Shown: positions 664 through 23,313, numbered from the stretch's first letter. The stretch: DNA of 23,387 nt from Pachysolen tannophilus NRRL Y-2460 (GCA_001661245.1 KV454011.1:709498-732884), one strand, 5' to 3'. The notes: generated by a model not told the origin, from the sequence alone. Numbers and translations: made by a program.

Positions 664-1631
664 TATTTTATTTATTTATTATGTATGTATTTCAAACCTT
701 TAAATTAAAAAAAATGAAAGAACCGTTTTTCCCTTTTCAATCAATCAAAATCCATTAGCCTAGCGTTAAAATAGGCTAACGTAATGGCTAATGTAATTGC
801 TGATGTAAATGTATAAGAACTTGTTCTATAAAAAGATAGTAGGTTGCCACAGAGGACGAGTTTTTCATTCTTAGATTTATAGTTTATGTAAAGACACAAC
901 GCACTCACTATAGTTTTAAAACTTATTCATGAACTCATGAATACGACTCAAAAAGATAGCAAGCAAATTAGCAAATTTTCTTTCAAGTTTTTTTAAATAA
1001 AAAAACTAAAATGAATAAAATAATTCCAAAAATTCCTTTATAGACCAGAAACAGACAATGCTGTTTAGTCTATAAAGAGCAGTCAATGGTTAAAAAGTTT
1101 TCAACCAGCAAAAACATGATCTCGGACGAATCCTCACTGATACACGTAATGCCCGAGCATAAGGACGGTGAAGAAAGGAAAAAAAAAAAAAAATTAAACT
1201 ATGAAAAACAGCGAAAAAATTCGCATTTATATCAGATTTTTCGAAAGGAAAAAAAAATTATCATCAAGAAAATATTCCCTTTTAGGACTACTCGGGCTGC
1301 TTCAGTTAACACCTTTAAAATAATGGTCAAAATTGGGGCTGCGGTCCTGGCTATTGCCTGTGTTTACACATTGCCTAATGAGGTTATATAATCATAGAAA
1401 ACATCTCTAACCATGCATAAGGTATATGCTTTTATTTACAATTTTTCCAAAGTAAAATTGAGTGAAGGTATTTGATTTAATTTTGACTTGTCTTGTCTTG
1501 TCATGTCTTTATTTTTATTTTTATTTTAAAAAGTTTCTTTTTTTTTTTTTTTTTTTTTTTTTTGTTTTTGCTTGCTGTTATTTGAAATAACGACTGGAAT
1601 CCGATTATATTTCATAGGAAAACTTTGAGCC

Positions 1632-4600
1632 ATGTCTGATCCATTCAAAGATCAAAACTCTAATGGTGAAAAGCATAACCCATTCCGTAATGAGTTTGAA
1701 GCATCTGGTATTTCAAGGCCAAGTAGTATATATTCCAATAGTACTTCCCCAAGACGTTATGCCAACGAATTGTACAATGAAAGCAATTGTAAGTTAAAGT
1801 TTTACTGAATAAAATTTTCAACTGAAAAAAAAAAAAAAAAAAAAAGATGAAATTACTAATAAATTTTCGAAAATTTTGATAACTAGCTGACCAAGTCCAT
1901 GGGTTCCCTACCCAAAACCAATATAGTCCAAATAAGAAAACAGCTAAATATTCTCCTGCGGTTTTCAGTAGATCGAGAGAAGGCAGAAATAATGATGACA
2001 TTTATGGATCCTCAGTTGGAAACAGTTTTATAGGTAGAGCCAGGAAAGATAGTGACGACGGCACCAGCGTTTCGGAAAGGTATAGATACACCAATATTCA
2101 TGAGTCTCCTAAAAAAAATAAGCCAACTTTCATCAATATGGATGATGACGTTATTGATACCTCAGATATTACAAGTCATTATAACGGTAAGAGTCCTTCC
2201 AGATTTGTCAGAAACACGAGTGCAAATAGCAGATCAACCAAATCATCAGATAGGGTGTTAGCACCTCCAAAACCAATTTTTTCAGCTCAAACTTTTGCTG
2301 CAGCTAATGCTTCTGGAAACTTTAGTAATCACCCAGATATAAACTCTGAAGCACGTACAAATTCTCACTATAGTGAAAAAAGCAGTATAAGTTTCAATGC
2401 CAATCAGTTTAGAATAAACGATACTGATGATGATGATAATACCACTGTCTATAGTAGTGAAAGCTTGGGTGGTGACAAATTATCCAATTCATTAAGTTAC
2501 TCGGATTATGAAGACTCTGAGTCCTTTAAACAAAGTTTAGATGGGAACATGTTTGCAGAATTACCACTGGATTATCAACCTCGGAGAAATAATCATACAG
2601 CAACTCAAAAACAATTTTATTTACAGAATGGTAACTTGATTCTTGATAATGCTGTTCCTTCTAAACTATTGAATTTCTTACCATTGAAAGATGAAAGAGA
2701 GTTCAATTATATGAGATACTCTGCGGTAACATCCGATGCAGATGACTTTTCCGCTTCAGGTTTTTCATTAAGAGCTGCAGATTTGAAAAGAGAAACCGAA
2801 ATTGTTATTTGTGTGACCATGTATAACGAAGATGCTGAAGCATTTACTAGAACAATGCACGCAATTATGAAAAATATAGTTTATTTGACTAAGAGAAAGA
2901 AATCACCAATTTGGGGAGATGATAGTTGGGAAAAAATTGTTGTTGTTATTGTTAGTGATGGTAGAGGCAAATGTAGCGAAAGTGTCTTGGAAGTTTTAAG
3001 TGCTATGGGTGTTTACCAAAGTGGGATTGCTAAGTCATTTGTTAATAATAAAGAAGTTAACGCACATTTATTTGAGTATACAACACAAATTTCCATTGAT
3101 GAAGATTTGAAATTTATGGGAAGTGAAAAGGGAATTGTTCCAGTTCAAATATGTTTTTGTTTGAAAGAGAAAAACGCTAAAAAAATCAATTCTCATAGAT
3201 GGTTATTCAACGCATTCTGCCCTGTTTTACAACCAAATGTCTGTGTTTTATTAGATGTGGGTACTCAACCTGATAGTCATGCTATTTATAACTTGTGGAA
3301 AGCATTTGACCAAGATTCAAACGTTGCAGGTACTGCGGGTGAAATTAAAACCATTAATGGTAAATATTGGAAGAATTTAATGAATCCTTTGGTTGCCTCA
3401 CAAAATTTTGAATACAAAATGTCCAATATTTTGGACAAGCCTTTAGAATCTGTATTCGGATATATCTCTGTCTTACCAGGTGCATTATCAGCTTATAGAT
3501 ATACTGCTTTAGAAAATCATGAAGACGGTACAGGTCCTTTAAACTCATATTTCAAAGGTGAAAACTTAGATACTGCTGAGAATCATGATATTTTTACTGC
3601 AAACATGTACCTTGCAGAAGATAGAATTTTGTGTTGGGAACTAGTTGCAAAGAGAAATGCCAAATGGGTCTTGAAATATGTTAGATCTGCCACAGGTTCC
3701 ACTGATGTTCCTGAAAAATTATCAGAATTCATCTCACAAAGAAGAAGATGGTTAAATGGTGCCTTCTTTGCTGCATTATATTCACAAGTCCATTTCAGGC
3801 AAATTTGGGCCACAGATCACTCATTTATAAGAAAGTTTTTTTTACATATTGAATTTATTTATCAATTTGTCCAATTATTATTCAGTTTCTTTTCGTTAGG
3901 AAACTTTTATTTGACTTTTTACTATTTGGCTGGTGCCTTAATCAATGTTATTCCTAATAATGGTGGTTATTGGATATTTCAAATCTTGAATTATTTATGT
4001 GTTTCAGATTTAGTTGGTATGTTTATGATATCTATGGGTAATAGGCCACAAGGTGCTAAGAAATTATACTTAACTTCATTGCTTATCTTAGTCTTCTGTG
4101 GTCTCTATGCATATGTTGCAGGAATATATTTCACTATATCAGCAATAAAAACTGAAACAATTGATCCTTCAAGTGATACTTCAAACTCATTTTCTGTGAT
4201 TATTGTTTCTTTGTTATCAACTTATGGGTTATATGCCTTTATGTCTTTAGCTTATATGGATTTTTTCCATATTTTTACTTCATCTTTGCAATATTTCTTA
4301 TTGTTACCCGCATATACTTGTTTATTACAAATTTATGCTTTCTGTAATACTCATGATGTTTCTTGGGGTACTAAAGGTGATAATGCTCCAGAGACTAACT
4401 TGGGTAATGCTGTCGTTAAAAAGGATAAATCCGGGAAAGAGATTGTTGAAGTGGAAATTATTGGAGACCAAATGGATATTGACAATGTTTATGATGAAGT
4501 CTTGTTCAATTTAAGATCCAGAAGACAAACACCTCTAGAATTAAGAACCAACAGTGATTCAAATGGACCAAGTCATGAAGATTATTATAGAGATGTTAGA

Positions 4601-5017
4601 ACTAGAGTCGTCTTGGTCTGGTTAGTTGCAAATTTAATCTTAATCATGACAATCACTCAAGTTTATGATGCTGATGCCATAAATACAAACAAGTATTTGG
4701 AAGTCATCTTGATTTGTGTTGCTGCACTAGCTGGGTTCAGAGCTATTGGTAGCTTTGCGTACTTGGGTCTCCTAGGTCTTAGAAATATTGACAAACAACA
4801 GACAAACAAAAAACAAACAAATAAACCTTACTTAAACACAGATATCAAAGAAAATGCAAAAGAAAAAATAGATAAAAATAATCAAAATAAAAAGTTTTTT
4901 TTTTTTTTTTTTTTACTTAACCTTAGTATTGACTATGGTTTGTGTATTCTATTTGGTGAAATAACGCTCTTTGAACTTACGATTACCTTGGATGTTTCCT
5001 CTGTTAAATTATTATAA
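1632..5017 (+). CDS. CHS2: Chitin synthase, division 1, probably class II (Sc Chs2/Ca Chs1-like); join(1632..1788,1887..5017), about 1095 aa; 3' end uncertain
   Basis: Motifs [30 protein letters not shown] and C-terminal TM helices. An upstream exon (MSDPFKDQN..., ATG at 1632) splices in frame (T+CT=Ser) into the open frame that contains the 2138 ORF. Confidence 0.88.
1789..1886 (+). other. Spliceosomal intron (98 nt) in the chitin synthase
   Basis: 5' site GTAAGT at 1789, branch-like TACTAAT at 1854-1860, 3' TAG at 1884-1886. Splicing joins two open frames in phase. Confidence 0.85.
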
Positions 5018-6561: not shown

Positions 6562-8262
6562 ATGGTATTATTTTTGAAAAGTTCATCGGCAACTGCTGCC
6601 CCTAGCGCTAATATAGCTAAAACAAATTTCTTGACAGATTTTTATGACAAATTTCCAAAGACTTATAACATGTATATCATTGCATTTGTTTCAACAATAG
6701 GTGGTTTGATGTTTGGTTTTGATATTTCATCTGTTTCATCATTTCTTTCTCAAGAGTATTATTTAAAGTTTTTTGATAGTCCCGATACTATTACCCAGGG
6801 GGGTATATCTGCTTCGATGGCTGGAGGTTCTTTTATTGGATCTCTTATAGCGTCTTATATTTCTGATCCATTAGGACGTAGAGTAAGTTTACAAGTTTCA
6901 TCTATGTTTTGGATGATTGGTGCTCTGATTCAAAGTTCTTCTCAAAATAGAGCTCAGTTGATTTGTGGAAGATTTATTTCTGGTTTTGGTATTGGAATTT
7001 CATCTTCTACAGCACCAAGTTATGTTTCTGAAATATCTCCAAAAAAAATTAGAGGTACTATGGGAGGAATATTTCAATGGTCTGTAACAATTGGAATTAT
7101 GGTTATGTTCTTTATTGGTTATGGTTGTACTTTTATTGATGGTGTCGGAAGTTTCAGACTTGCATGGGGTCTTCAAATTGTTCCAGGACTGATGTTATTT
7201 GTTGGTGTTCCCTTTTTGCCAGAATCTCCTCGTTGGTTAGCAAATCATGGACAATGGAGTAAAGCAGAAGATATTGTTGCTCGTATTAATTCAAAAGGAG
7301 ATCTTGAAGATCCAGAGGTTATTATTGAATTGAAAGAAATTAAAGAACAAGTTCTTATTGATGAAGATGCAAAAGATGTTACATTTCTGGAATTATTTAA
7401 TAAGACAAATATTAAACGTACAACAGTTGGTATGTGTGGTCAAATGTGGCAACAAATGTGTGGTATGAATGTCATGATGTATTATATTGTTTATATTTTT
7501 GAAATGGCAGGATATACCGGTAACACTAATTTAGTTGCTTCAAGTATTCAATATGTTATATTTGTTGTTATGACAGCACCTGCTTTGTTTTTCTTGGATA
7601 AAGTTGGAAGAAGACCTTTATTATTGATTGGTGCAGTATTAATGGCAGCTTTCTTATTTGCAGTTGGCGCTATCTTGGCTGTTTATTCTGAACCAACTAC
7701 AGATTTTGATGGAAATGAAAATATTACAATTTCAATTCCAGATTCAAATAAAGCTGCTGCTAAAGCTCTTATTGCATGCTCATATTTATTTGTTGCTACT
7801 TTTGGACCAACTTGGGGTCCAGGTATTTGGTTATACTGTTCAGAAATTTTCCCAAATAGAATTAGAGCTAAGGCTAATGGTGTTTCCACTTCTGTAAACT
7901 GGATTTTCAATTTTGCATTAGGTATGTTTGTTCCTACTGCTTTCCATAATATTAGTTGGAAAACTTACATGATTTTTGGTACTTTTTGTGTTGTTCTGTT
8001 TTTCAACGTTTACTTCTTATTCCCTGAAACTCAAGGTAAAACTTTGGAAGAAATAGATCAAATGTGGCAAGATGGTGTCCCAGCATGGAGAACAAAGAAC
8101 TATGTTGTCGAACTCCCACCTCTTGGCGAAGTCTTTGAAGAAAAGGCATCTGCTCGTGAAGTTGAAAATGCTTCAAGCGATGATAACGCTACAGTTGATG
8201 AAACTAGATTTAGACTTCAAAGTACAGAAAGAGTAAGAGAAGTAAATGTTGAAGAAGTCTAG
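6562..8262 (+). CDS. HGT1: High-affinity glucose transporter, sugar porter (MFS) family, HGT1-type
   Basis: GGLMFGFDISS, D.LGRR, PESPRWL, QQMCGMNVMMYY, DKVGRR and PETQGKTLEEID sugar-porter motifs. N-terminal DKFPK.YN and the QSSSQNRAQL segment resemble Kluyveromyces/Candida Hgt1. Confidence 0.9.
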   Translation: MVLFLKSSSATAAPSANIAKTNFLTDFYDKFPKTYNMYIIAFVSTIGGLMFGFDISSVSSFLSQEYYLKFFDSPDTITQGGISASMAGGSFIGSLIASYISDPLGRRVSLQVSSMFWMIGALIQSSSQNRAQLICGRFISGFGIGISSSTAPSYVSEISPKKIRGTMGGIFQWSVTIGIMVMFFIGYGCTFIDGVGSFRLAWGLQIVPGLMLFVGVPFLPESPRWLANHGQWSKAEDIVARINSKGDLEDPEVIIELKEIKEQVLIDEDAKDVTFLELFNKTNIKRTTVGMCGQMWQQMCGMNVMMYYIVYIFEMAGYTGNTNLVASSIQYVIFVVMTAPALFFLDKVGRRPLLLIGAVLMAAFLFAVGAILAVYSEPTTDFDGNENITISIPDSNKAAAKALIACSYLFVATFGPTWGPGIWLYCSEIFPNRIRAKANGVSTSVNWIFNFALGMFVPTAFHNISWKTYMIFGTFCVVLFFNVYFLFPETQGKTLEEIDQMWQDGVPAWRTKNYVVELPPLGEVFEEKASAREVENASSDDNATVDETRFRLQSTERVREVNVEEV

Positions 8263-10330: not shown

Positions 10331-13300
10331 ATGTCATCAGAGCGGTCTTTAATACAAAAATTGACCATAGAGATATGCAATAAGTTAAACATACCCAATG
10401 AACCATATAATACGGAAAATGAAATGATGGCCAATTTCATGTTGGATTTATTTGAAAAATCAACAACAAATTTGGAAGATTTTAAAACTAAATTGAAAAC
10501 TATGGGAGCGCCTGATTTGGCTGAAGATAACTTCATTCGCAAAATTAATAATTTGATCAAAAGTTATAGTTCTGATTCTCAATCTACTAAAATCAAACTT
10601 GAAAATGGTGGAACAGCAACGGCTATTTTTGATTCTTCTTTACCTAATGTGAAGACCAATTATAACGGCAAAGCACTAGATGGAATAAAGAAGGAGCATA
10701 AAACAGAAAAAGAAGAAGAAGAAGAAGAAGAAGAAGAAGATTTGATACCATGGCCAAATAATAAGAGAAAATTTAGGTCTGATTACGAGCCTCCATTTAA
10801 AAGAGAGAAGTTGGAAGAGGATGAGGAACCAGTTTTGGATAAGATATATAAAGGTAGAGTTGTTAATATGACGAATTTCGGTGCGTTTATAAGATTATAT
10901 GGGATAAAACCACTTGTTTCAAGTAGGAATAGATATATTGATGGGTTATGCCACATATCGGCAATTAGTAAAGATAGAATTGAACATCCGTCAGATGTAT
11001 TGAAAAAAGATCAAGAAGTTTATGTGAAATTAGTAGATATTCAAAGAAATGGGAAAATAAGTTTATCTATGAAAAATATAAATCAAATGAATGGGCAAGA
11101 AGAAGAAGAAGAATATCATTCGGGAGATCGTTTTAGAAGGGGAAGACAACAAGCTCCAATAGGTGAATCTGTTGGAAATTTGAAGAAAAGATTATCATCT
11201 CCTGAAAGGTGGGAAATACGACAATTAATAGCTTCAGGTGTTCTTAGCGCTAAAGATTATCCGGAATTAGCAGAAGATGTAAATGCTGCATTCCTGCAAG
11301 ACTTGGAGGATAATACAGAACTGAATGAAGACGTTGAAATTGTATTGAACACAGATGAACCTCCTTTCTTACAAGGACAGAAATATCATGCAAAAGATTT
11401 AGCTGCACCTGCAAGAATTAGGAGACCTAAAGGATCATTAAACAGAGTTGCAATATCAGGTTCTGCATTAGTAAAAGAGAGAAAGGAAAAAAAATTACAA
11501 GAGTTGAGAAGATTGGAAAAGGAAAAAAGACATAAACTGATACAGAGAAATAAAAATAGCGATGACCCATTATTGAACTATGATGATGAAGGAGATCTTT
11601 TAGAAAGAAATATTGATGAAGAAGATGAAGATGATCCTGAAAATCAAGCAAGGCTAACTTTAATTGAATCTGAATGGAAAAGGCAAATCAAACAACAGTC
11701 TTTAGGGAAAAGGACAAATTTAAGTATAAAGGAACAAAGAGAGTCTTTGCCTGTTTTCAAGATGAGATCAACTTTGGTAAAAGCAGTAAAAGAAAATCAA
11801 TTCATGGTAATTATTGGTGAAACCGGTTCAGGTAAGACAACACAAATCACTCAATACTTAGCAGAAGAAGGCTTCAATAACAACAACAAAATAATTGCTT
11901 GTACTCAACCTCGTAGAGTTGCAGCAGTAAGTGTCGCCAAAAGAGTTGCAGAAGAAGTTGGTTGTAAAGTTGGTCAGGAAGTTGGTTATACAATTAGATT
12001 TGAAGATATAACAAGTAAGGATACAAAGATCAAATATATGACTGATGGTATGCTTCAAAGAGAAGCATTAGTTGATCCAGATATGTCAAAGTATTCTGTG
12101 ATAATGTTAGATGAGGCTCATGAACGTACTATTGCTACAGATATTTTATTCTCATTATTGAAAAAAGCATGTAAGAAAAACCCAGACTTGAAAGTTATTG
12201 TTACTTCAGCAACTTTAGATGCTGAGAAATTTTCAAAATTTTTTTATGATTGTCCTATTGTGAGTATCCCTGGTAAGACATTCCCAGTTGAAGTTTATTA
12301 TACAAATGAGCCAGAAATGGATTATGTTAGTGCTTGTTTGGATGCAGTCATGGAAATCCATACTACGCAACCGAGTGGAGATATATTAGTGTTTTTAACT
12401 GGTCAAGAGGAGATTGATACGTGTTGTGAAGCGTTATTTGAAAGAACAAAGATTTTAGGAGATGCAATCCCAGAATTAATAATTTTGCCTGTTTATTCTT
12501 CATTACCATCAGAAATGCAAACAAAAATTTTTGAACCTACTCCAAAGGGTAAAAGAAAAGTTATTGTTGCTACTAACATTGCAGAAACTTCTATTACTAT
12601 TGACGGAATCTATTATGTTATTGATCCTGGATTTGTTAAATTAAATGCTTATGATCCAAAGTTAGGTATGGATTCTTTAGTGATTTCGCCTATATCTCAA
12701 GCACAGGCTAATCAAAGGAAAGGAAGAGCTGGAAGAACAGGTCCTGGAAAATGTTTTAGATTATATACTCAATCTGCATTTAATAATGAGATGATGCCAC
12801 AAACTGTTCCTGAAATACAAAGACAAAATTTATCTCGTACAATGTTGATGTTGAAAGCAATGGGGATTGATGATTTATTAAATTTTGAATTTTTAGATCC
12901 TCCTCAAACAAATACAATTTTGAGTTCTTTAGAAGAATTGTATACTATGGGTGCATTGGATAATGATGGTTATTTGACTAATTTAGGTCGTAAAATGGCT
13001 GATTTTCCCATGGATCCTGCATTATCCAAGACTTTAATTGCATCGATTGAATTTAAATGTGCTGAGGAGATTTTAACTATAGTTGCCATGCTTTCTGTTC
13101 AATCAATTTTTTATAGACCTAGAGAAAAACAAAATCAAGCAGATCAAAAAAGAGCCAAATTTAATCATCCTCATGGTGATCATTTAACACTTTTAAATGT
13201 TTATCAAATGTGGGAAAAAAATAATTTTTCCAAGAGTTGGTGTGAAGACAATTTTATTCATGAAAGATCGATGAAAAGAGCAAGAGATGTAAAGTTACAA

Positions 13301-13726
13301 TTGATTCAAATAATGAAAAAATATAGACATCCTATTTTGAGTTGTGGAAATGATACAGATAGAATTCGTAAAACTCTTTGTTCTGGATATTTTAGAAATT
13401 CAGCCAAAAAAAATACAACTGGTGGATGTTATAAGACACTTGTTGAAAAAAATACAATTTATATGCATCCATCTTCTTCATTATTTCAAAAACAAACTGG
13501 TGATTATGTCATTTATCATACATTATTATTAACTACAAAAGAATATATGCATTGTGTTACAATAATAGATCCAAAATGGTTAATCGAATTAGCACCTAAT
13601 TTCTTTAGATTTAATGATCCTCATGAGTTGAGTGATTATAAGAAAAGAGAAAGAATTCAACCGTTGTACAATAAATTTGATCCAAAACAAAGTTGGAGAT
13701 TAACAAAATCAAGAAGAAAAATGTAA
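10331..13726 (+). CDS. PRP22: DEAH-box pre-mRNA splicing helicase Prp22 (DHX8) with S1 domain
   Basis: S1 domain (IYKGRVVNMTNFGAFI...DGLCHIS), SSPERWEIRQLIASG, GETGSGKTTQ, TQPRRVAA, DEAH, SAT, ATNIAETS and QRKGRAGR motifs. Confidence 0.96.
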   Translation: MSSERSLIQKLTIEICNKLNIPNEPYNTENEMMANFMLDLFEKSTTNLEDFKTKLKTMGAPDLAEDNFIRKINNLIKSYSSDSQSTKIKLENGGTATAIFDSSLPNVKTNYNGKALDGIKKEHKTEKEEEEEEEEEDLIPWPNNKRKFRSDYEPPFKREKLEEDEEPVLDKIYKGRVVNMTNFGAFIRLYGIKPLVSSRNRYIDGLCHISAISKDRIEHPSDVLKKDQEVYVKLVDIQRNGKISLSMKNINQMNGQEEEEEYHSGDRFRRGRQQAPIGESVGNLKKRLSSPERWEIRQLIASGVLSAKDYPELAEDVNAAFLQDLEDNTELNEDVEIVLNTDEPPFLQGQKYHAKDLAAPARIRRPKGSLNRVAISGSALVKERKEKKLQELRRLEKEKRHKLIQRNKNSDDPLLNYDDEGDLLERNIDEEDEDDPENQARLTLIESEWKRQIKQQSLGKRTNLSIKEQRESLPVFKMRSTLVKAVKENQFMVIIGETGSGKTTQITQYLAEEGFNNNNKIIACTQPRRVAAVSVAKRVAEEVGCKVGQEVGYTIRFEDITSKDTKIKYMTDGMLQREALVDPDMSKYSVIMLDEAHERTIATDILFSLLKKACKKNPDLKVIVTSATLDAEKFSKFFYDCPIVSIPGKTFPVEVYYTNEPEMDYVSACLDAVMEIHTTQPSGDILVFLTGQEEIDTCCEALFERTKILGDAIPELIILPVYSSLPSEMQTKIFEPTPKGKRKVIVATNIAETSITIDGIYYVIDPGFVKLNAYDPKLGMDSLVISPISQAQANQRKGRAGRTGPGKCFRLYTQSAFNNEMMPQTVPEIQRQNLSRTMLMLKAMGIDDLLNFEFLDPPQTNTILSSLEELYTMGALDNDGYLTNLGRKMADFPMDPALSKTLIASIEFKCAEEILTIVAMLSVQSIFYRPREKQNQADQKRAKFNHPHGDHLTLLNVYQMWEKNNFSKSWCEDNFIHERSMKRARDVKLQLIQIMKKYRHPILSCGNDTDRIRKTLCSGYFRNSAKKNTTGGCYKTLVEKNTIYMHPSSSLFQKQTGDYVIYHTLLLTTKEYMHCVTIIDPKWLIELAPNFFRFNDPHELSDYKKRERIQPLYNKFDPKQSWRLTKSRRKM

Positions 13727-13797
13727 ATTAAATTAAATAGAATTTTATTTTTTAATTTTTTTAATTTTTTAATTTTTATTTATTATAATATACACAA

Positions 13798-14253
13798 TTA
13801 CGATTCTAATCTTTCAATAATATGACTTTGAGTCTTAGCCCTCTGTATAACTAAATTTTTCCCAAAAAAATTATCTCCTTGTAAAGATTTCATTGCTAAA
13901 TTTGAATCCACAACATTACTAAATACAACATGTGCTTGTCCCCTCATCTTAGGAGATTTCAAAGCTATTATCTGTATCACTTCTCCATAAGTAGAAAATA
14001 ATATATATAACTGCTGTTTCAACAAATTTTTGTGTAACTTGTCATTTAAATTTTTAAGATATAAAGTATATGTATTCTCTTCCTTGTTCAATATGTCCTC
14101 ATCTTCTTGCTCATCTTGTTCTTGTTCTTGTTCCTGTTCTTGTTGTTCCAGACCTTCAATTTTTTGTTTTTTCAACAGCGGTTGAGTAGTTATATCCTCA
14201 GCATCAATTCCCAGGCCATTATCACCAACTATACTATGTTTTGCCTTTGTCAT
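13798..14253 (-). CDS. MSL1: U2 snRNP B''/U1A-family single-RRM protein (Msl1-like), 151 aa from the ATG at 14253
   Basis: TLYLKNLNDK...LYILFSTYGEVIQI...KMRGQAHVVF...FFGKNLVIQRAKTQS is the U1A/U2B'' RRM signature. A single RRM favours Msl1. The ORF-track start at 14271 is TTG; the first ATG is at 14253. Confidence 0.75.
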   Translation of the reverse strand: MTKAKHSIVGDNGLGIDAEDITTQPLLKKQKIEGLEQQEQEQEQEQDEQEDEDILNKEENTYTLYLKNLNDKLHKNLLKQQLYILFSTYGEVIQIIALKSPKMRGQAHVVFSNVVDSNLAMKSLQGDNFFGKNLVIQRAKTQSHIIERLES

Positions 14254-14752
14254 TATCAAACCAACTAACAAGATACTATAGCCTTATATACTATAAAATT
14301 TTCTTTTTTTTTTGCTTTTTTTTTAGCTTCAATTAACTTTTTTTTACAGTATTAAAAAAGACAAAAAACATAGTAAGAAACGTTAGTCGTGCATAAACAA
14401 CACAAACTGTGTTTTTTTTTTTGCAAATACAAAAGTTGTTCACCAAAAGCCAAAAAAAACGGAAATTTTTTTACTTTTACCAGTTTGTTTCCATACTTGT
14501 CCCAATACGGGCTATTCAAGTTAACTCACTTCCCATTACACTAATTGCTTTTTACTGTAACTATACTACTGTTTTAGGCAAAACAATACAATTTTTTTTT
14601 TCTTTTTCTTTTTCAAATATTTCCGTCACGGAAAGCAAACCTTTATCACGCCGAACTTTTTTATATGAAAAATCATAACAAATGTTAACATTTTTTTTGA
14701 TAAACAAAAATTATATTTGGAGAAGGAGAAGAAAATTAAATATTTAGAAATA

Positions 14753-16066
14753 ATGACAACTAGTACTTATAATCAACAGTCGAATCAACACGACCCAACA
14801 TCAATTGCAGTAGCACAACAATTAACAGGTCAAAGAAGTTCATCACTGGATCAATTATCTTCGACGCTGGGGGAAGCAAATGTTGGTACAAGTGGTACAA
14901 GTGGTACAGGTTCAAGTATTGTTGGTGGGAATGTTCCCAAGACAAATAGTAGGAAACCATATACTGAAGAAGAAGTTTTTTATTTAATTGATATTTATGC
15001 CAAGTATACACAGAATGGGTTAAATATTAAACATAGATTGACTAAATTAGGTCCAAATAAGACATTAAATTCAATAATTGCAGAAGAAATGACAAAGAAA
15101 TTTCCAAATTCTTTAAAAATTTTTGATAAAGAAAATATTCGTAAAAAATTAGATGAAATTAAAAATGAATATATAATTTTCCGTTATTTATTACTTAAAA
15201 GTAGTGGGTTTGGTTGGTTAATTAATGAAGGTAGATTTAATTTAAATATTAATAATTTGGAATTTTATAAAAAAGATTTTGTTAATATGGGTGGTCAATT
15301 AAATAATAAAACTGATACTTTTAAAAAATTTTTAAAAAATGGAAATTTTTATATTTATCATTATCATGAATTAATAGGTCATAATTTAGATTTTGATCTT
15401 GATTTTAGCAAGGCAAGTGCTGAAAATGGTCTTCCATCTTCGACAAACCCAAATATTGAACCAGAGTTGATTAACCAGCAACAACAACTGCAACAACAAC
15501 ATCTGCTGCTGCTGCTGCATGATGGTAGTGCGTCATCATCGATTGCAGCTCTGGCAGCAGCAGCTGCACTGGCACATAGTGGCAGTAGCAGCCATGCTTC
15601 TAATGTGATTGCTCATAACAACACTGAAGACATTGAAGACGGAGACAACGACGACAACGATAATAACAACAACAATAACAATAATAGTAACGATAACAAT
15701 AACACCAATAATGACAATAATAACGAGAATGAAGTTGTTGGTCCATCGTCTCTGCTGCCAAGACATCAACAACAGCAAATAATCAATTCTTCTTCTTTAG
15801 CTTCTTCAAGACCTTATAAGCGTATCTTGGATAATTCCGACTTTTTAGTAGATAAGAGAATAAGGTACAATAACATTACAGAAAGAGATGAAGAAAATAC
15901 TATATTGGAATTTGTATTGAAATTGACTCAAGATGATCCAGAATTTTTCAAATTTAATCAACTATGCGCTTTAGTTGAAAATTATAGGTTGCTCAGAAGG
16001 TTAATCTTATCAAACAAATATGATTATACTCATAAGCAAAATTTGATTAAAGAATTTATTAGTTAG
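14753..16066 (+). CDS. Uncharacterised protein with a Myb/SANT-like DNA-binding domain (Myb_DNA-bind_3 / PIF-Harbinger ORF type) and Q/A/N low-complexity tracts
   Basis: 437-codon ORF from the ATG at 14753. Segment RKPYTEEEVFYLIDIY...IAEEMTKKF...DKENIRKKLDEIKNEY...LLLKSSGFGW fits the trihelix Myb-like pattern ending in SGFGW. The ORF itself is solid; the domain call is by eye. Confidence 0.7.
   Translation: MTTSTYNQQSNQHDPTSIAVAQQLTGQRSSSLDQLSSTLGEANVGTSGTSGTGSSIVGGNVPKTNSRKPYTEEEVFYLIDIYAKYTQNGLNIKHRLTKLGPNKTLNSIIAEEMTKKFPNSLKIFDKENIRKKLDEIKNEYIIFRYLLLKSSGFGWLINEGRFNLNINNLEFYKKDFVNMGGQLNNKTDTFKKFLKNGNFYIYHYHELIGHNLDFDLDFSKASAENGLPSSTNPNIEPELINQQQQLQQQHLLLLLHDGSASSSIAALAAAAALAHSGSSSHASNVIAHNNTEDIEDGDNDDNDNNNNNNNNSNDNNNTNNDNNNENEVVGPSSLLPRHQQQQIINSSSLASSRPYKRILDNSDFLVDKRIRYNNITERDEENTILEFVLKLTQDDPEFFKFNQLCALVENYRLLRRLILSNKYDYTHKQNLIKEFIS
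15476..15724 (+). repeat. Coding trinucleotide repeats (CAA, CTG, GCA, AAC/AAT/GAC) in the Myb-like gene
   Basis: Poly-Q, (CTG)5 at 15503-15517, GCN-rich run at 15545-15574, Asn/Asp tract at about 15640-15724. Confidence 0.85.
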
Positions 16067-16410
16067 AAATAGAGATTAGGGATAAGGATTTGTATCGTTA
16101 CATGTGTGTGTGTTTTTTTGTTTTTTTTTCTTCTTCTTCTGTTAGTTAGTTAGTTAGTTATAATTTGTAATTTGCTTTATATTTAGTCACTTTTTGTGTA
16201 ATCTTAGTATCAAAAGTTGTACTCATCGTATAGACCGCTTATTTCCTGAGTCCTCGGGTTTTCTCGTCAAATTAAAAGTTTTGAAAAAGTGAAAAAAAAT
16301 AAAAAAAAACATGAAAAAAAAAACATGGGACATAATCATTTTTCAATCAGGCAACTAAGTTGTTTGTACAATTGCATTTAAACTTCAGGTTCAGGTATTA
16401 TACTCAAGCC

Positions 16411-18132
16411 ATGTCAATTGCATCAAGGTCATTGCAAAAAAATCTAACTGTTGGTGTGATAGGTTCAGGGATTTCTGGCTTGAGTTTCACTTATTTTCTT
16501 TCTCAATTAAGACCGGATTTAAATTTTATTGTTTTTGAGAAACAGAAAGAGGTTGGAGGTTATATTCATTCAGAAACTAAAACTTATGGTAAAGATGCCA
16601 ATTCTAGTTTGAAGAAATCAGTGATCTTGGAGAAAGGTCCAAGGACTTTAAGAGGCTCTTCAGATGGTACCTTATTAATATTGGATACATTGTTGAAATT
16701 AGGTCAAAAGGAAAAAATTTATGCAGTTCATTCCAAATCACCTGGAAATAAAAAATATTTATTGTCATATGAAAAAAATTCAAATGATGAGGCCTTAACT
16801 GAAGTTCCAAACTCTGTGGAAACTCTTTTCAAATTTTTATTTTCTTCATTAACCAAATATTCCATAATAAATATTTTCTTGGAAATGTTTAGAAAGAAAA
16901 AAAAAGATTTTTCAAAAGATGAATCTATAGAACTGTTTTTTAAGAGAAGATTTGATAAATATTTAAATGAAAATATTGCCAGTGCAATGATTCATGGAAT
17001 ATACGCTGGAGACACTTCAAAATTGAGTTTCCAGACAATAATGCCGAAACTAGCAGAATTGGAAAAAACCGATAGGTCTATATTATTAGGTTTATTAAAA
17101 CAAAACTATAAAGCTTTCACCACAAAAAAATTAGAAAAGTCAGGAAAGGAAGAATGTCAAATTGAATTGAGTAAAAATTTAAAAGATTACTCAAAATATA
17201 TTAGTAGTCCCTCAATACCATTTATAAATTTAAAGAAATTTTTGAAAAATTACCCCATTATTTCATTTAAAGAAACGGGAATCAGTATTCTAACAAAAGT
17301 TTTGTATGAAAATTTGAAAAAAAATCCTAAAGTCAAGTTTTTGTTTGAACAAGACATTGAATCCATATCGAAAAATGAAAATGGCAAATTATCCTTGAAA
17401 ACTTTGCAAAAAGTATATGAATTAGATCATATAAGATCAACGATAAATAGCCATAGCTTAGCTTCTCTAATAAGTACATCTTTATTACTGAAAGATTTGC
17501 AAAAATTGAATTATTCAGACATATTGTTGGTTAACTTGTTTATTCCCAAGAATTTGTTATATACAGAAGGTTTTGGGTATTTAGTTCCCAAATCAAGTAT
17601 CTTAAAACATAATTATCTTCTTGGTTGTATCTTTGATTCCAGCATTGAAAAACATTCATTTAGATTGTTTGAAAACAATAGGTTATTAGTAAATTTGATA
17701 AATTATCCGAAAATCAAGCAAGAAGAAATTAACTCGTTGACATATAGCGATTTTAGCAAGAAGAAGCCAGCAGATCTTGGATACACAAAATTAACATTAA
17801 TGTATGGTGGAATATATAACAAAGAAGTTTTATCTCAGTCTTATAATCAGCTTTTCAAGAAAGTCAACAAGATCCTAGAAGATCAGTTCAATATCGATTT
17901 GAATGTATATAAAGACGAAAATGGATTTATCTTGGAAAAAACAGTAATTGAAAATTGTATTCCTCAATATGAAGTTGGCTATAACGATTTATATGAAAAT
18001 GTTATGAAAAACTTGCAGTCAGAATTTGAAGGCAAATTATCTATTGGAGGAATGAGCTTTAACAAACTGAAGAGTATTGGGGTTCCTGATTGCTTTATGG
18101 ACAGTTTTGAAAGTAGCATTGAACTTAAATAG
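16411..18132 (+). CDS. HEM14: Protoporphyrinogen oxidase
   Basis: N-terminal FAD-binding VGVIGSGISGL, EK..EVGGYI, LEKGPRTLR, SAMIHGIYAGD, GFGYLVPKS, LLGCIFDS, IPQYEVGY and GVPDC motifs. First ATG is at 16411. Confidence 0.92.
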   Translation: MSIASRSLQKNLTVGVIGSGISGLSFTYFLSQLRPDLNFIVFEKQKEVGGYIHSETKTYGKDANSSLKKSVILEKGPRTLRGSSDGTLLILDTLLKLGQKEKIYAVHSKSPGNKKYLLSYEKNSNDEALTEVPNSVETLFKFLFSSLTKYSIINIFLEMFRKKKKDFSKDESIELFFKRRFDKYLNENIASAMIHGIYAGDTSKLSFQTIMPKLAELEKTDRSILLGLLKQNYKAFTTKKLEKSGKEECQIELSKNLKDYSKYISSPSIPFINLKKFLKNYPIISFKETGISILTKVLYENLKKNPKVKFLFEQDIESISKNENGKLSLKTLQKVYELDHIRSTINSHSLASLISTSLLLKDLQKLNYSDILLVNLFIPKNLLYTEGFGYLVPKSSILKHNYLLGCIFDSSIEKHSFRLFENNRLLVNLINYPKIKQEEINSLTYSDFSKKKPADLGYTKLTLMYGGIYNKEVLSQSYNQLFKKVNKILEDQFNIDLNVYKDENGFILEKTVIENCIPQYEVGYNDLYENVMKNLQSEFEGKLSIGGMSFNKLKSIGVPDCFMDSFESSIELK

Positions 18133-18753: not shown

Positions 18754-20913
18754 ATGACGACGACGAATTTTTATGATTCCAGATATGATGCAAACCCAGT
18801 TTTCACTTCAATTTTTCAAGATGATAGAAATTTTTTTGATGTTCTTGAAGGTAAAATTTTACCAATTGAAAATCAAAGGGCTTGTAGGCTTTCCAATAGT
18901 AGAGAAGAAGGGTATTCTTCAATATATGCTAATAGTATGAATGGGGGTAAGAATCAAGTATGCAGTACGATTTTGCCTCAGGTTAAGACTTTTTTCGAAT
19001 TCTTGGACAGGGCAATGGAATTTTATGGTAATAAAGATTGTTTAGGTTTTAGAAAATTCAATGAAGACACTGGAAAGTTTGATAATTTTTTTACTTTCCA
19101 ATCATACAAGACCGTTTTTAAGAGGAAAAAAGATATTGGAAGTGGTTTATGTAAAGTTTTGAATAACGTGCAAGATAAGTTCATACTTACATTATACTCT
19201 CCAAACCGTGCAGAATGGATCTTGACTGATTTAGCTTGTCACAGTTATGATATTCCAACTACTGCTTTATATGATACTTTGGGTCAAAATGCCAGTGTTC
19301 ATATTTTACAAATCACCAAGTCTCCAATTGTAGTATGTCCTAAGGATAAACTTTTAAAAATTTCTACTCTTAAAAAGAAACATCCACAAGAGTTGAAGAA
19401 TTTGTCAATTGTTGTTTCAATGGATGACTTGAAACCAAAAGAAATTGGAAATTTTCAAGAGATTTTCAATAATTTAGGTATGAAATTGTTTGATTTGAAA
19501 ACAGTTGAAAAATTAGGTGAAGAAACCCCTATTCCATATATACCACCTAGTCCTGATGGTTTATATTCAATCTGTTTTACTTCTGGTACAACTGGAGCAC
19601 CAAAAGGTGCAGAGCTTACACATAAAGGTTTAATGGCAGGAATGACTTTCTACCTCAGTAAGCTTGAGAAACCTAAATCTCATTTAAAGAATGGGGCCTT
19701 ATATTCTTTATGTTTTCTACCATTGGCACATATTTTTGAAAAAATGGGATCTTATTATTGTTTAGCTTCCGGAATTGCAATTGGGTTTCCTCATGATAAT
19801 TCCCCTTTGAAATTATTGGAGAACCTTAGAATTTTGAAACCTAACCTTCTTGTTGCAGTTCCTAGGTTATATACCAAGTTTGAACTAGCATTGAAGCAAT
19901 ACATTTCTCAAAATGATCAATTGGCTAGATTTGTTGAAAGGAAACTTTTAGCATCTAAACAAAATCAACAGCTTTTGCTGCTGGAAGATAATCTTGATCT
20001 ATATATAACTGCAGAATTGAGAAGACTCTTGGGATTTGATAATATGGACTTACTTGTAACTGGTTCTGCACCAATTAGCCCTCAAACTGTATTTTTCTTG
20101 AAAACTGTTTTAAATACAAACATTGTTCAAGGGTATGGTTGTACTGAAACGTTTGCAGGCTTGTGTTTATCTTCAAAAACCGAACCACTGCCTTTTTCTT
20201 GTGGCTACCCTGGTTGTACAGTTCAATTTAGACTTAAAGACGTTGAAGAGATGGGATACCGTTCTAGCAATGATGATAATTTTGAAGAACTTGATGAACC
20301 AAGAGGTGAACTATTGATTAGAGGTTCTCAAGTATTTGAAAATTATTTCAAGAATAAACTTGCTACAAAAGAAGCTATTGATGAGAAAAATTGGTATCAT
20401 ACGGGAGATATTGCTAAAATCGATAAAGACGGTAAGATCCATATCATCGATAGAGTAAAGAATTTTTTCAAATTGGCTCAAGGAGAATTCATCACACCAG
20501 AGAGAATTGAAAATGTTTACTTGAGTTCATGTCCCATGCTATCACAAATGTTTATCCATGGAGATTCAAAACATGATTACTTGGTATCTATAATAGGTGT
20601 CGAACACCCCTTTTTACACAAGATCTTAAAACATGAAACTCCAATTGATTTAAACTCTATCAACAAAGATAAAAAAATTAAAAAATTCATTGTTGAAGAA
20701 TTAAATAAACATGTTGGTGATAAAGGTTTACACAGTTTTGAAAAAATACATAATACTTATATTGCCCATGAACCTTTAAAATTGGAAAATAATGTTATAA
20801 CACCAACTCTCAAGATCAGAAGAAACATCGCCAAGAAGTTCTTCCTGCAAATTCTCCAAGGATTATATTCAGAAGGCAGTTTGATCAAAGATGGTAGTAG
20901 CAACAAGTTGTAA
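18754..20913 (+). CDS. FAA2: Long/medium-chain fatty acyl-CoA synthetase, Faa2-like, probably peroxisomal
   Basis: AMP-binding SICFTSGTTGAPKG, FLPLAHIFE, QGYGCTET, WYHTGDI, IIDRVKNFFKLAQGEFITPE and TPTLKIRR motifs. C-terminus LYSEGSLIK...NKL resembles Faa2 and ends in a PTS1-like tripeptide. Confidence 0.88.
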   Translation: MTTTNFYDSRYDANPVFTSIFQDDRNFFDVLEGKILPIENQRACRLSNSREEGYSSIYANSMNGGKNQVCSTILPQVKTFFEFLDRAMEFYGNKDCLGFRKFNEDTGKFDNFFTFQSYKTVFKRKKDIGSGLCKVLNNVQDKFILTLYSPNRAEWILTDLACHSYDIPTTALYDTLGQNASVHILQITKSPIVVCPKDKLLKISTLKKKHPQELKNLSIVVSMDDLKPKEIGNFQEIFNNLGMKLFDLKTVEKLGEETPIPYIPPSPDGLYSICFTSGTTGAPKGAELTHKGLMAGMTFYLSKLEKPKSHLKNGALYSLCFLPLAHIFEKMGSYYCLASGIAIGFPHDNSPLKLLENLRILKPNLLVAVPRLYTKFELALKQYISQNDQLARFVERKLLASKQNQQLLLLEDNLDLYITAELRRLLGFDNMDLLVTGSAPISPQTVFFLKTVLNTNIVQGYGCTETFAGLCLSSKTEPLPFSCGYPGCTVQFRLKDVEEMGYRSSNDDNFEELDEPRGELLIRGSQVFENYFKNKLATKEAIDEKNWYHTGDIAKIDKDGKIHIIDRVKNFFKLAQGEFITPERIENVYLSSCPMLSQMFIHGDSKHDYLVSIIGVEHPFLHKILKHETPIDLNSINKDKKIKKFIVEELNKHVGDKGLHSFEKIHNTYIAHEPLKLENNVITPTLKIRRNIAKKFFLQILQGLYSEGSLIKDGSSNKL

Positions 20914-21528: not shown

Positions 21529-23313
21529 ATGAGTCTTATCATTAGGATACTATTATGTATATTGTTAGTATCTGTGTTTTATATAGTAAGCTATACTCAT
21601 TTAATAGCATATAATAAGAAGAGGAAAAGAAAAATATTGCTGGCTTTAGGGGTACTGCTACTTTTAACTTATAATTTGAATACTATCATAGACAATGTTG
21701 AATATTATCGCTTGTCATTTACTAAATATAAAAATATTCCGGAAAGTTCACCATTGAGTATACCAGTGATAAATGCAGAATATACAAGGTATAATATTAA
21801 TGGATATTCATTTAAGGCTAATTCTATTACATCTAATTGTCAAAATTTAGAAGTTCAAAGTAATTTACAAGTCACACGCAAATATGAATTAGTTGATGAT
21901 ATGTACAGTATTAGACGTAGAATTAGTCAAATGTTATTAAAAAATAGTATGTTTGAAAATTGTTTCTTGGATGAACCTGATGAAACTGAAGAAGAGATTT
22001 TAGCTACTAAATGGTTTAGATTTGGTGGTAGCAGTGCATGGTTATCAAAATATAAAATTCAATTTTTGGTGAGTAGAATCATATATTCAAATTTAAGTAA
22101 AAAAAATGATCCAACAATGAGTGTTTTACATGTTCAAGTATATAATAGAGATTGGAGAGAATTGAAAAATCATAAAATTGAAGTTTTACAAAATGATGAG
22201 CCTTTAATTTTCCCACAAGTTTTAAATATACCTTCTTTCCAATCTCCTGCTAATAGATTTGGTCTAATGGGACCCGAAGATCCAAGAGTTATTGTAAGAA
22301 ATTTTAAAACTCCAAAAGGTGAAGAAGATCAAGAACCAATAGTGGTGTTTAATATGCTTGATGATAATATCAATAAAAAGAGAGGTATGCACATTTTTAA
22401 ACCTTTTGCTAGAGAAGATGATGAATCAAGGTTCTTATTATTAAGATTAGGTGACCTATTACCAAGAAAAATTGAAAAAAATTGGATTCCATTTTTTATT
22501 GATGATGAACAAGATGAATTCTTACACTTTATGTATTCAATTGATCCGTTGTTAATTGTCAAATGTAGCTTAACAAATGGTATGTGTTATTGGGTCTTTG
22601 GCCCAGAATTTGATAATGCTCTTCAAATTGAAGATCATAATGTTCAAGACATAGGTGCAATGAGAGGTGGTACAAATCTCATAAGGATTCCAGATTACGT
22701 TTATGATAAAAATAGATTGATTAATAGAAACAAACAATATTGGATAGGATTCCCAAGATCTCATAACGATAATTGCGGTTGTACAAAAGTTACTTATAGA
22801 CCACACATGATGATCCTTTCTAGAAATTTAAAGGATAAGACTTATAAATTAGAATATATGAGTACATTATTAGACTTTAATATGGAAGTTTTATCATGGG
22901 AAAAGGGTAAGACTGTTTGTGAAAGCGGTAAAAGTGTTATGATTCCTAATGGTATTGCATATTGGGATTTTTTGAAAGAATGGGATGATGAGGAGAAAAA
23001 AGCTACAATAAAAGATGATTATATGGGATTAATAATCTCAGAGTCTGATACAAATATTGTGTTGATTCATATAAGAGGTTTCTACTATTACGTATTGAAG
23101 ATATTGAAAAATTTGGAAATGAAAGAAGTGCTGAAAAATAGCCAATCTGGAAAATCTAAAGCAGATAAAGAAGAAGAATTAGAATTGGATTTCGACGTTG
23201 CTGAATATCAAAATAATAAAATGGTAAAGTGTGCCCTCGAAGATGCTCCAAAGTATTGTAAGATTAACGGTCTTTTGGATCTGTTAATGAAGGATAATAA
23301 AGATGACGAATAA
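21529..23313 (+). CDS. Beta-1,2-mannosyltransferase (BMT family, GT91), membrane-anchored
   Basis: Hydrophobic N-terminal segments, then KWFRFGGSSAWL...VSRIIYS, GPEDPR, EPIVVFN, IEKNWIPF, RGGT, WIGFPRSH..CGC..YRP and SVMIPNGIAYW motifs typical of Candida/Komagataella Bmt proteins. The paralog cannot be assigned. Confidence 0.88.
   Translation: MSLIIRILLCILLVSVFYIVSYTHLIAYNKKRKRKILLALGVLLLLTYNLNTIIDNVEYYRLSFTKYKNIPESSPLSIPVINAEYTRYNINGYSFKANSITSNCQNLEVQSNLQVTRKYELVDDMYSIRRRISQMLLKNSMFENCFLDEPDETEEEILATKWFRFGGSSAWLSKYKIQFLVSRIIYSNLSKKNDPTMSVLHVQVYNRDWRELKNHKIEVLQNDEPLIFPQVLNIPSFQSPANRFGLMGPEDPRVIVRNFKTPKGEEDQEPIVVFNMLDDNINKKRGMHIFKPFAREDDESRFLLLRLGDLLPRKIEKNWIPFFIDDEQDEFLHFMYSIDPLLIVKCSLTNGMCYWVFGPEFDNALQIEDHNVQDIGAMRGGTNLIRIPDYVYDKNRLINRNKQYWIGFPRSHNDNCGCTKVTYRPHMMILSRNLKDKTYKLEYMSTLLDFNMEVLSWEKGKTVCESGKSVMIPNGIAYWDFLKEWDDEEKKATIKDDYMGLIISESDTNIVLIHIRGFYYYVLKILKNLEMKEVLKNSQSGKSKADKEEELELDFDVAEYQNNKMVKCALEDAPKYCKINGLLDLLMKDNKDDE

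What the first reader, a model, noticed from the sequence alone, without database searches (positions are those of the whole stretch)
14753..16066. Orphan Myb/SANT-like gene with a PIF/Harbinger-type SGFGW domain: possible domesticated transposon gene in a budding yeast
Seen: a trihelix-like domain followed by LLKSSGFGW, a low-complexity linker and a short helical C-terminal domain, intact and lying between two housekeeping genes. No transposase, TIRs or TSD are visible nearby. Established: Myb_DNA-bind_3-type domains followed by SGFGW are typical of the DNA-binding ORF of PIF/Harbinger elements in plants and some fungi, and such ORFs have been domesticated as chromatin regulators. Inference: a co-opted Harbinger Myb protein acting as a lineage-specific regulator, possibly with an HARBI1-like partner elsewhere. 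I do not recognise an S. cerevisiae ortholog. This is the best candidate for an undescribed system here.
Basis: partly seen in the sequence, partly recalled or inferred. Interest (0 to 1): 0.72.

Follow-up and report, generated by a model that had tools for sequence, protein, structure and literature searches.

The report
Lineage-restricted Myb/SANT-like yeast gene
This is a real gene, seen so far only in a small group of yeasts that read CTG as alanine, and it probably encodes a DNA-binding regulator with a very divergent Myb/SANT-like domain; whether it came from a Harbinger transposon could not be tested.

Summary
The ORF 14753..16066 (+, 437 aa) is intact and holds the LLKSSGFGW stretch. 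It lies between a U2 snRNP B''-like (MSL1-like) gene and a protoporphyrinogen oxidase (HEM14-like) gene. The database copy of this protein differs from the standard-code reading only by L to A at CTG codons.

A HMMER scan of 1.84 billion representatives found one true relative, P0002. It is 73% identical in residues 60-225, clearly similar in the last ~60 residues, and unalignable in the linker.

Three weak lines agree on a Myb/SANT-like fold:
- Pfam Myb_DNA-bind_3 at E 8.8e-4, 20.6 bits, below the 23.6 cutoff.
- Language-model neighbours carrying PF12776, PF13837 or MADF.
- Low-Z structural matches to Zeste and GT-1.

No transposase, TIRs or second copy are in the window. No genome is held, so the HARBI1-partner test could not be run. 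Most likely this is a lineage-specific nuclear DNA-binding regulator. Harbinger origin remains possible but unshown. Interest is modest.

The parts
14753..16066 (+). Whole ORF, 437 aa plus stop; to be read with CTG=Ala (table 26)
   Evidence: the database copy P0001 differs from the table-1 reading only by L to A
14254..14752 (.). 499-bp intergenic region shared with the divergently transcribed U2 B''-like gene; presumed bidirectional promoter (inferred)
   Evidence: no repeats other than poly-T/poly-A runs
14753..14938 (+). Residues 1-62: S/T/G/Q-rich N-terminal tail, predicted disordered, not conserved in P0002
   Evidence: pLDDT 25-34; alignment A2; composition
14954..15226 (+). Residues 68-158: basic (pI 9.6 for 63-158) Myb/SANT-like trihelix core ending in SSGFGW (150-155)
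   Evidence: PF12776 E 8.8e-4, profile positions 8-82 of 96; helices 72-86, 105-116 and 126-149; VIA match to Zeste DBD Z 5.6, 69 aligned, and GT-1 Z 4.5; Atlas neighbours
15227..15385 (+). Residues 159-211: conserved helical extension of the N-terminal domain (includes GNFYIYHYHELIG)
   Evidence: high identity to P0002; helices 166-183, 187-196 and 198-211; no Pfam family
15386..15406 (+). Residues 212-218: LDFDLDF, a conserved acidic-hydrophobic motif; candidate activation or cofactor-docking motif (inferred; the likeness to the VP16 activation motif is recalled)
   Evidence: L212, F214, D215, L216, D217 and F218 invariant between the two proteins; segment pI 4.05
15452..15469 (+). Residues 234-239: NIEPEL, a short motif conserved inside otherwise unalignable sequence
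   Evidence: invariant columns N234-L239
15473..15865 (+). Residues 241-371: Q/A/N/D/S-rich low-complexity linker with a (CTG)5 run (15503-15517) that encodes Ala5
   Evidence: pLDDT below 50
15881..16063 (+). Residues 377-437: conserved C-terminal helical domain of no known family
   Evidence: pLDDT 70-87; conserved in P0002; no Pfam hit at E up to 10; Atlas best 0.82; best VIA Z 5.6

Best explanation
A real single-copy host gene, restricted (as far as sequence searches can see) to the yeast lineage that reads CTG as alanine. It most likely encodes a nuclear DNA-binding regulator. Inferred mechanism: the basic N-terminal module (residues about 68-211) is a very divergent Myb/SANT-like trihelix domain of the Myb_DNA-bind_3 type and contacts DNA through its long third helix. 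The conserved acidic-hydrophobic LDFDLDF and NIEPEL motifs, with the Q/N/A-rich linker, recruit co-factors and most likely act as an activation region. The conserved C-terminal helical domain (377-437) binds a partner protein or another copy. Shown: the ORF, the conservation pattern, the weak Myb-like signals and the absence of transposon features in the window. Inferred: DNA binding, activation, partner binding and nuclear location.
For: The ORF is intact and 437 aa long in 30% G+C DNA, and its GC3 (0.22) is like that of its neighbours. One true relative, P0002, shows domain-wise conservation: 73% identity over residues 60-225, a clearly conserved last ~60 residues, two conserved short motifs, and a linker that cannot be aligned. 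That pattern is expected under purifying selection on folded parts. Pfam Myb_DNA-bind_3 matches at E 8.8e-4 (domain) and 6.1e-3 (whole protein), and the match runs through SSGFGW; Myb_DNA-bind_4 matches in 2 of 2 members, best E 0.073. In the Atlas feature search, the listed neighbours with a Pfam family carry PF12776, PF13837 or MADF, scores 0.86-0.90. In the full-length model, residues 66-141 align to the Drosophila Zeste DNA-binding domain (Z 5.6, rmsd 2.8, 69 of 75 residues). Further rows for this part are GT-1, TEAD, CENP-B, ISWI SANT, RAD MYB, ARR1 and NgTRF, at Z 4.1-5.2. The core is basic (pI 9.6) and the next segment acidic (pI 4.05).
Against: Every Myb-like signal is weak. Pfam scores are below the curated cutoff (20.6 and 17.9 bits against 23.6). 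P0002 alone gives no Pfam family at E up to 0.01, and its domain misses PF12776 even at E up to 10. Both AlphaFold models rest on 2 sequences and have low confidence (mean pLDDT 59.6 and 44.8). The domain-only model gave no Myb-type match: Foldseek found none at E up to 0.001, and the best VIA Z was 4.9, to AsiA. Foldseek on the full model found nothing either. The tool itself warns that Z under 8 is common by chance for helical models. The classical Myb tryptophans are mostly replaced by Y, F or I. Nothing here shows expression, nuclear location or DNA binding.
Confidence: 0.5

Rival explanations
1. Domesticated PIF/Harbinger Myb-like gene. On this view the gene descends from the second ORF of a Harbinger element, lost its TIRs, and now works as a host regulator, perhaps with a HARBI1-like transposase-derived partner that the C-terminal domain binds.
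For: The best Pfam family is Myb_DNA-bind_3. The size fits the roughly 300-400 aa Myb-like ORF of PIF elements, and such proteins evolve too fast to be found by BLAST (passages read in PMC9710019). Co-domestication of Harbinger Myb-like proteins is well documented in vertebrates, insects and plants (passages read in PMC9392472; search listings for PMC5339849 and PMC7282668). The patchy, lineage-restricted distribution fits a late acquisition.
Against: No transposase family was found in the 7 neighbouring proteins. There are no TIRs and no second copy in the window. No TE-encoded relative was retrieved. Myb/SANT-like domains of this type also occur in ordinary host proteins. The partner test was impossible because no genome is held. 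[quoted passage not shown]
Confidence: 0.2
2. SANT-type chromatin or protein-binding subunit. On this view the N-terminal domain binds histone tails or a partner protein rather than DNA, and the protein is a lineage-specific accessory subunit of a chromatin complex.
For: The structural rows for residues 66-156 include ISWI SANT modules and a TIP60/TRRAP-lobe segment at Z 4.2-4.5. SANT/Myb/trihelix motifs bind proteins as well as DNA (passage read in PMC9392472).
Against: The core is strongly basic (pI 9.6); typical histone-binding SANT domains are acidic (recalled). The best family and the best structural rows are DNA-binding members. All of these matches are weak.
Confidence: 0.15
3. Diverged ortholog of a conserved yeast protein that sequence searches no longer recognise.
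For: Regulators with long disordered parts evolve fast, and only 2 sequences were available to build a profile. The neighbours PRP22-like, HEM14-like and an acyl-CoA synthetase lie in the order recalled for S. cerevisiae YER013W-YER015W, so the region is otherwise conserved.
Against: A full HMMER scan with the domain profile found no further relative at E up to 0.001 among 1.84 billion representatives. The word-based searches found none. No Pfam family of a conventional yeast protein matched.
Confidence: 0.1
4. Not a functional gene: a chance or decaying ORF.
For: No RNA evidence was obtained. About a third of the ORF is low-complexity repeat.
Against: A 437-codon open frame in 30% G+C DNA is very unlikely by chance. 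A second species keeps the two folded parts at high identity while the linker has diverged.
Confidence: 0.03

Closest known systems
Pfam PF12776 Myb_DNA-bind_3 (Myb/SANT-like DNA-binding domain; clan with PF13837 Myb_DNA-bind_4 and PF10545 MADF)
   Same: This is the best sequence match (E 8.8e-4), covering profile positions 8-82 of 96 and running through the GFGW motif. The predicted trihelix has a long third helix, and the domain is basic.
   Different: The score is below the curated cutoff. Only 1 of the 2 known members matches. The classical tryptophans are mostly replaced by Y, F or I. A conserved 50-residue extension and a C-terminal domain have no family.
Myb-like (second) ORF of PIF/Harbinger transposons and its domesticated descendants (NAIF1 and MSANTD genes in vertebrates, HDP2 in Arabidopsis, insect MADF partners)
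   Same: An N-terminal trihelix-type domain in a protein of a few hundred residues, fast evolution, and no TIRs once domesticated (passages read in PMC9392472 and PMC9710019).
   Different: No cognate DDE transposase or HARBI1-like gene is in the window, and the genome could not be searched. No phylogenetic link to TE copies was obtained. To my knowledge no Harbinger-derived gene is described in budding yeasts: the searches listed none, judged from titles and abstract starts only.
Drosophila Zeste DNA-binding domain (PDB 5cqq) and Arabidopsis GT-1 trihelix domain (PDB 2jmw)
   Same: These are the top structural rows for residues 66-141 and 66-152 of the full-length model: Z 5.6 with rmsd 2.8 and 69 aligned, and Z 4.5 with 75 aligned.
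   Different: Sequence identity is 13%. The Z values lie in the range the tool calls common for helical models. These rows did not appear with the domain-only model.

Membership tests
Pfam Myb_DNA-bind_3 (PF12776) | Score at or above Pfam's gathering cutoff (23.6 bits) | tested here: not met
   17.9 bits for the whole protein and 20.6 bits for the domain alone, E 8.8e-4. The P0002 domain has no PF12776 match at E up to 10.
Myb/SANT-like clan (PF12776, PF13837, MADF) | Three-helix (trihelix) secondary structure with a long recognition helix | tested here: met
   Helices 72-86, 105-116 and 126-149 appear in both AlphaFold models, but at low confidence (pLDDT 50-78 in this part).
Myb/SANT-like clan (PF12776, PF13837, MADF) | Fold similarity to solved Myb/SANT/trihelix domains | tested here: inconclusive
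   Full-length model: Zeste Z 5.6, GT-1 Z 4.5, ISWI SANT Z 4.2-4.3, RAD MYB Z 4.1. Domain-only model: none of these among the listed rows, best Z 4.9. Foldseek found nothing at E up to 0.001 for either model.
Myb/SANT-like clan (PF12776, PF13837, MADF) | Conserved bulky aromatic residues in the three helices | tested here: inconclusive
   Y70, F76, F117, Y140, F143 and W155 are invariant between the 2 members. With only 2 sequences and no aligned reference family, the positions cannot be matched to the canonical ones.
Myb/SANT-like clan (PF12776, PF13837, MADF) | Binds DNA (or chromatin) | not testable with these tools
   Only indirect evidence: the core has pI 9.6.
PIF/Harbinger element or co-domesticated pair | Cognate DDE (DDE_Tnp_4 / HARBI1-like) transposase gene adjacent | tested here: not met
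   Pfam on the 7 other large ORFs of the window gave chitin synthase, sugar transporter, DEAH helicase, RRM, amine oxidase type, AMP-binding and BMT, with no transposase family.
PIF/Harbinger element or co-domesticated pair | HARBI1-like gene elsewhere in the genome | not testable with these tools
   No whole genome is held for this window.
PIF/Harbinger element or co-domesticated pair | Terminal inverted repeats and a 3-bp target site duplication | tested here: not met
   The 25 longest inverted pairs shown for 13700-16500 are A/T-rich runs of 70-86% complementarity. This fits a host gene or an old domestication and argues against an active element.
PIF/Harbinger element or co-domesticated pair | Nests phylogenetically among TE-encoded Myb-like proteins | not tested
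   No TE-encoded or other relatives could be retrieved to build a tree.
Conventional conserved yeast protein | Recognisable ortholog in other yeasts | tested here: not met
   The profile HMMER scan of 1.84 billion representatives gave 4 hits at E up to 0.001: the protein itself, P0002, and 2 tandem-repeat proteins judged spurious (8 and 6 weak stretches).

The most novel reading that the evidence does not exclude
This would be the first Harbinger-derived (Myb-like ORF) gene domesticated in budding yeasts. It would have been acquired in the ancestor of the CTG=Ala lineage, inserted between the MSL1-like and HEM14-like genes, and now serve as a clade-specific transcription or chromatin regulator whose new C-terminal domain docks a partner, possibly a HARBI1-like protein.
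Probability: 0.18. Interest if true: 0.6.

Novelty: new member of a known kind. Interest (0 to 1): 0.3.

Why it matters
If the reading is right, this is a clade-specific regulator in the small yeast lineage with the CTG=Ala code, and it has no counterpart in model yeasts. It would add a very divergent branch to the Myb/SANT-like (Myb_DNA-bind_3 type) domains. If transposon descent were shown, it would be a rare case of DNA-transposon gene co-option in the transposon-poor budding yeasts, beside Kat1, alpha3 and HO (those three recalled). As it stands, it is an uncharacterised lineage-specific putative transcription factor. That is useful for annotation but not surprising. It also shows that reading this genome with the standard code changes 12 residues of this protein.

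Tried and rejected
1. Word-based homolog searches. The whole protein gave 2 hits among 8000 scored candidates, and residues 60-225 gave 2 among 351: the protein itself and P0002 each time. The domain alignment in the 89-291 aa range gave none at E up to 10 among 2725 candidates. One search failed on an out-of-range E-value.
2. PDB sequence searches found only low-complexity or chance matches for the whole protein. With the domain profile the best E was 0.085.
3. Domain-only AlphaFold model (pLDDT 59.6). Foldseek gave none at E up to 0.001 and VIA wide gave a best Z of 4.9, so it was uninformative. Foldseek on the full-length model gave 6 rows at E up to 10, none meaningful.
4. C-terminal domain. 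There was no Pfam family at E up to 10. Atlas neighbours scored 0.82 or less and were bacterial, so gave no lead. VIA rows were mixed, including an SBDS-like archaeal protein, ANTAR regulators and a CUE domain at Z 4.5-5.6, with no consistent fold.
5. Homodimer test of residues 372-437 returned no verdict (score 0.02 against a mark of 0.32; the alignment was not used). It counts neither for nor against binding.
6. Sequencing runs. No RNA holder was listed. On laying 4 runs, only contigs matching the CAA/CTG repeats were placed, and the contig carrying the locus did not appear. This says nothing about expression, variants or transcript ends.
7. The metagenome scan with the domain alignment matched 595 pattern stretches, none a relative.
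8. Own-genome searches for paralogs and for DDE_Tnp_4 failed because no genome is held.
9. Earlier findings of this scan held nothing for this sequence or genome.
10. Literature. No paper was found linking Myb_DNA-bind_3 to a yeast gene (2 unrelated papers). No paper holds the motif GFGWD. PMC10799480, on fungal TE co-option, mentions the CTG=Ala yeast only for its genetic code and does not hold the words Harbinger or Myb; its supplements were not read.
11. DSN1 or PRI1 as positional orthologs, from the recalled S. cerevisiae order around MSL1, were rejected: no MIS13 or primase family matched.

Full report
**What is there.** The ORF at 14753..16066 (+) is open for 437 codons, starting at the first in-frame ATG after a stop at 14666. 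It lies in DNA of about 30% G+C, and its third-position G+C (0.22) matches its neighbours at 0.19-0.26. The stretch LLKSSGFGW is at residues 147-155.

The window's other large ORFs were named by Pfam and PDB sequence matches:

| ORF | Strand | Assignment | Key match |
|---|---|---|---|
| 2138..5017 | + | chitin synthase | Pfam |
| 6562..8262 | + | sugar transporter | Pfam |
| 10331..13726 | + | PRP22-like DEAH helicase | Pfam |
| 13798..14253 | − | U2 snRNP B''-type RRM protein | 3jb9_k, E 4.5e-27 |
| 16411..18132 | + | protoporphyrinogen oxidase | 3nks_A, E 2.1e-17 |
| 18754..20913 | + | acyl-CoA synthetase type enzyme | Pfam |
| 21529..23313 | + | beta-mannosyltransferase | Pfam |

The helicase, oxidase and acyl-CoA synthetase order matches what I recall for S. 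cerevisiae YER013W-YER015W. On that recollection the RRM gene and this gene are intercalated in an otherwise conserved block.

**Genetic code.** The database copy of this protein (P0001) is identical to the standard-code translation except that a set of L residues are A. Those positions are the 12 CTG codons, at residues 32, 39, 246, 251-255, 267, 273, 334 and 335. The organism therefore reads CTG as alanine (NCBI table 26, the Pachysolen-type code).
- CTG is enriched here, at 27 per 1000 codons against 1-20 in the seven neighbours, because of that repeat.
- No CTG lies in residues 60-225 or 340-437, so the domain analysis does not depend on the code.

**Relatives.** Word-based searches found only the protein itself and one relative, P0002 (397 aa). 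A third search in the 89-291 aa range found none at E up to 10 among 2725 candidates.

A profile of residues 60-225 from both proteins (A1) was run with HMMER over 1.84 billion representatives. It gave 4 hits at E up to 0.001: the two proteins, and two long tandem-repeat proteins matched by 8 and 6 weak stretches. I judge the latter two spurious after reading them. A metagenome scan found no relative.

The two proteins align with a clear domain pattern:
- 73% identity over residues 60-225.
- Invariant motifs LDFDLDF (212-218, all but D213) and NIEPEL (234-239).
- A linker that cannot be aligned.
- A conserved last ~60 residues.

This pattern argues for a functional protein with two folded parts.

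**The N-terminal domain.** Three weak lines of evidence agree on a Myb/SANT-like fold.
- **Pfam.** For the whole protein, the only domain-like match is Myb_DNA-bind_3 (PF12776), E 6.1e-3, 17.9 bits, residues 77-157. For the domain alone it scores E 8.8e-4, 20.6 bits, profile positions 8-82 of 96, which includes SSGFGW; Myb_DNA-bind_4 matches in 2 of 2 members with best E 0.073. Both PF12776 scores are below the curated cutoff of 23.6 bits, and P0002's domain does not match PF12776 at E up to 10.
- **Language-model neighbours.** Among the listed Atlas neighbours of residues 60-225, those with a Pfam family carry PF12776, PF13837 or MADF, at scores 0.86-0.90. The tool rates such scores as leads only.
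- **Structure.** AlphaFold with only 2 sequences gave low-confidence models, mean pLDDT 59.6 for the domain and 44.8 for the full length. Both place helices at 72-86, 105-116 and a long one at 126-149, as expected for a trihelix.

The fold searches were mixed:

| Model | Search | Result |
|---|---|---|
| Domain only | Foldseek | none at E up to 0.001 |
| Domain only | VIA wide | best Z 4.9, to AsiA |
| Full length | VIA wide | residues 66-141 to Zeste DNA-binding domain: Z 5.6, rmsd 2.8, 69 of 75 residues |
| Full length | VIA wide | GT-1, TEAD, CENP-B, ISWI SANT, RAD MYB, ARR1 and a telomere Myb at Z 4.1-5.2 |
| Full length | Foldseek | nothing |

The tool warns that such Z values are common by chance for helical models. 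The coherence of the list counts for something, but it is not decisive. The core is basic (pI 9.6) and the following segment acidic (pI 4.05). I put the Myb/SANT-like fold at roughly 0.8. Formal membership of PF12776 is not met.

**Other parts.**
- Residues 159-211 are a conserved helical extension with no family. From memory, plant Myb_DNA-bind_3 proteins continue after GFGWD with a similar aromatic/basic stretch ending in an L..I.G-like motif. That is a lead, not a test.
- LDFDLDF resembles, again from memory, the acidic-hydrophobic core of the VP16 activation domain. Together with the Q/N/A-rich linker this suggests an activation region.
- The C-terminal domain (377-437) is the most confidently modelled part (pLDDT 70-87), but it has no Pfam family, no Atlas lead and no consistent structural match.
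- A homodimer prediction for the C-terminal domain returned no verdict.

**Transposon question.** In the window there is no transposase family among the 7 other large ORFs. There are no inverted repeats beyond A/T-rich runs, and tblastn finds no second copy. This excludes an active element at this place. It is equally compatible with an ordinary host gene and with an old domestication.

PIF/Harbinger elements encode a DDE transposase and a Myb-like protein of about 300-400 aa, both needed for transposition. The Myb-like ORF evolves too fast to be found by BLAST, and the pair has been co-domesticated repeatedly (passages read in PMC9710019, and PMC9392472; search listing). [quoted passage not shown]

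The decisive tests could not be run. They are a HARBI1-like gene or Harbinger relics in the genome, and a phylogeny with TE-encoded Myb-like ORFs. No genome is held for this window and no relatives were retrievable. I put Harbinger descent at about 0.2.

**Verdict.** The gene is lineage-restricted and, probably but not firmly, Myb/SANT-like. "Domesticated Harbinger gene with a HARBI1 partner" remains an untested hypothesis.

The most likely function is a clade-specific nuclear DNA-binding regulator with three parts: a DNA-binding trihelix, an acidic/low-complexity effector region, and a partner-binding C-terminal domain. This is a new member of a known kind and of modest interest.

Noticed in passing
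window-wide; 15503-15517 in this ORF: The organism reads CTG as Ala: the database copy of this protein differs from the standard-code reading only at CTG codons. A (CTG)5 run next to CAA/CAG repeats encodes Ala5. Any standard-code annotation of this window mis-assigns 1-12 residues per gene.
   Followed up: partly
1015-1166 (-): A U4 spliceosomal snRNA gene (Rfam RF00015, 96.2 bits, full length). It overlaps the 101-aa ORF 1086..1391 (+), which is therefore probably spurious.
   Followed up: no
548-641 (+): Rfam finds a tRNA gene (48.8 bits) spanning 94 nt, so it probably contains an intron. ARAGORN in bacterial mode missed it. The anticodon was not determined.
   Followed up: no
8263-10330: About 2 kb between the sugar transporter and the PRP22-like gene has no ORF of 100 aa or more on either strand and no Rfam or tRNA hit. 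It was not examined further.
   Followed up: no
10331-20913: The PRP22-like, HEM14-like and acyl-CoA synthetase genes lie in the same order and orientation as recalled for S. cerevisiae YER013W-YER015W. The U2 B''-like gene and the gene studied here are intercalated between the first two (the S. cerevisiae order is recalled).
   Followed up: no
2138-5017 (+), 3' end: The last ~45 codons of the chitin synthase ORF read through a poly-T tract (a run of F) into hydrophobic sequence that does not look like coding sequence. The true stop, an intron or a sequencing error there was not checked.
   Followed up: no
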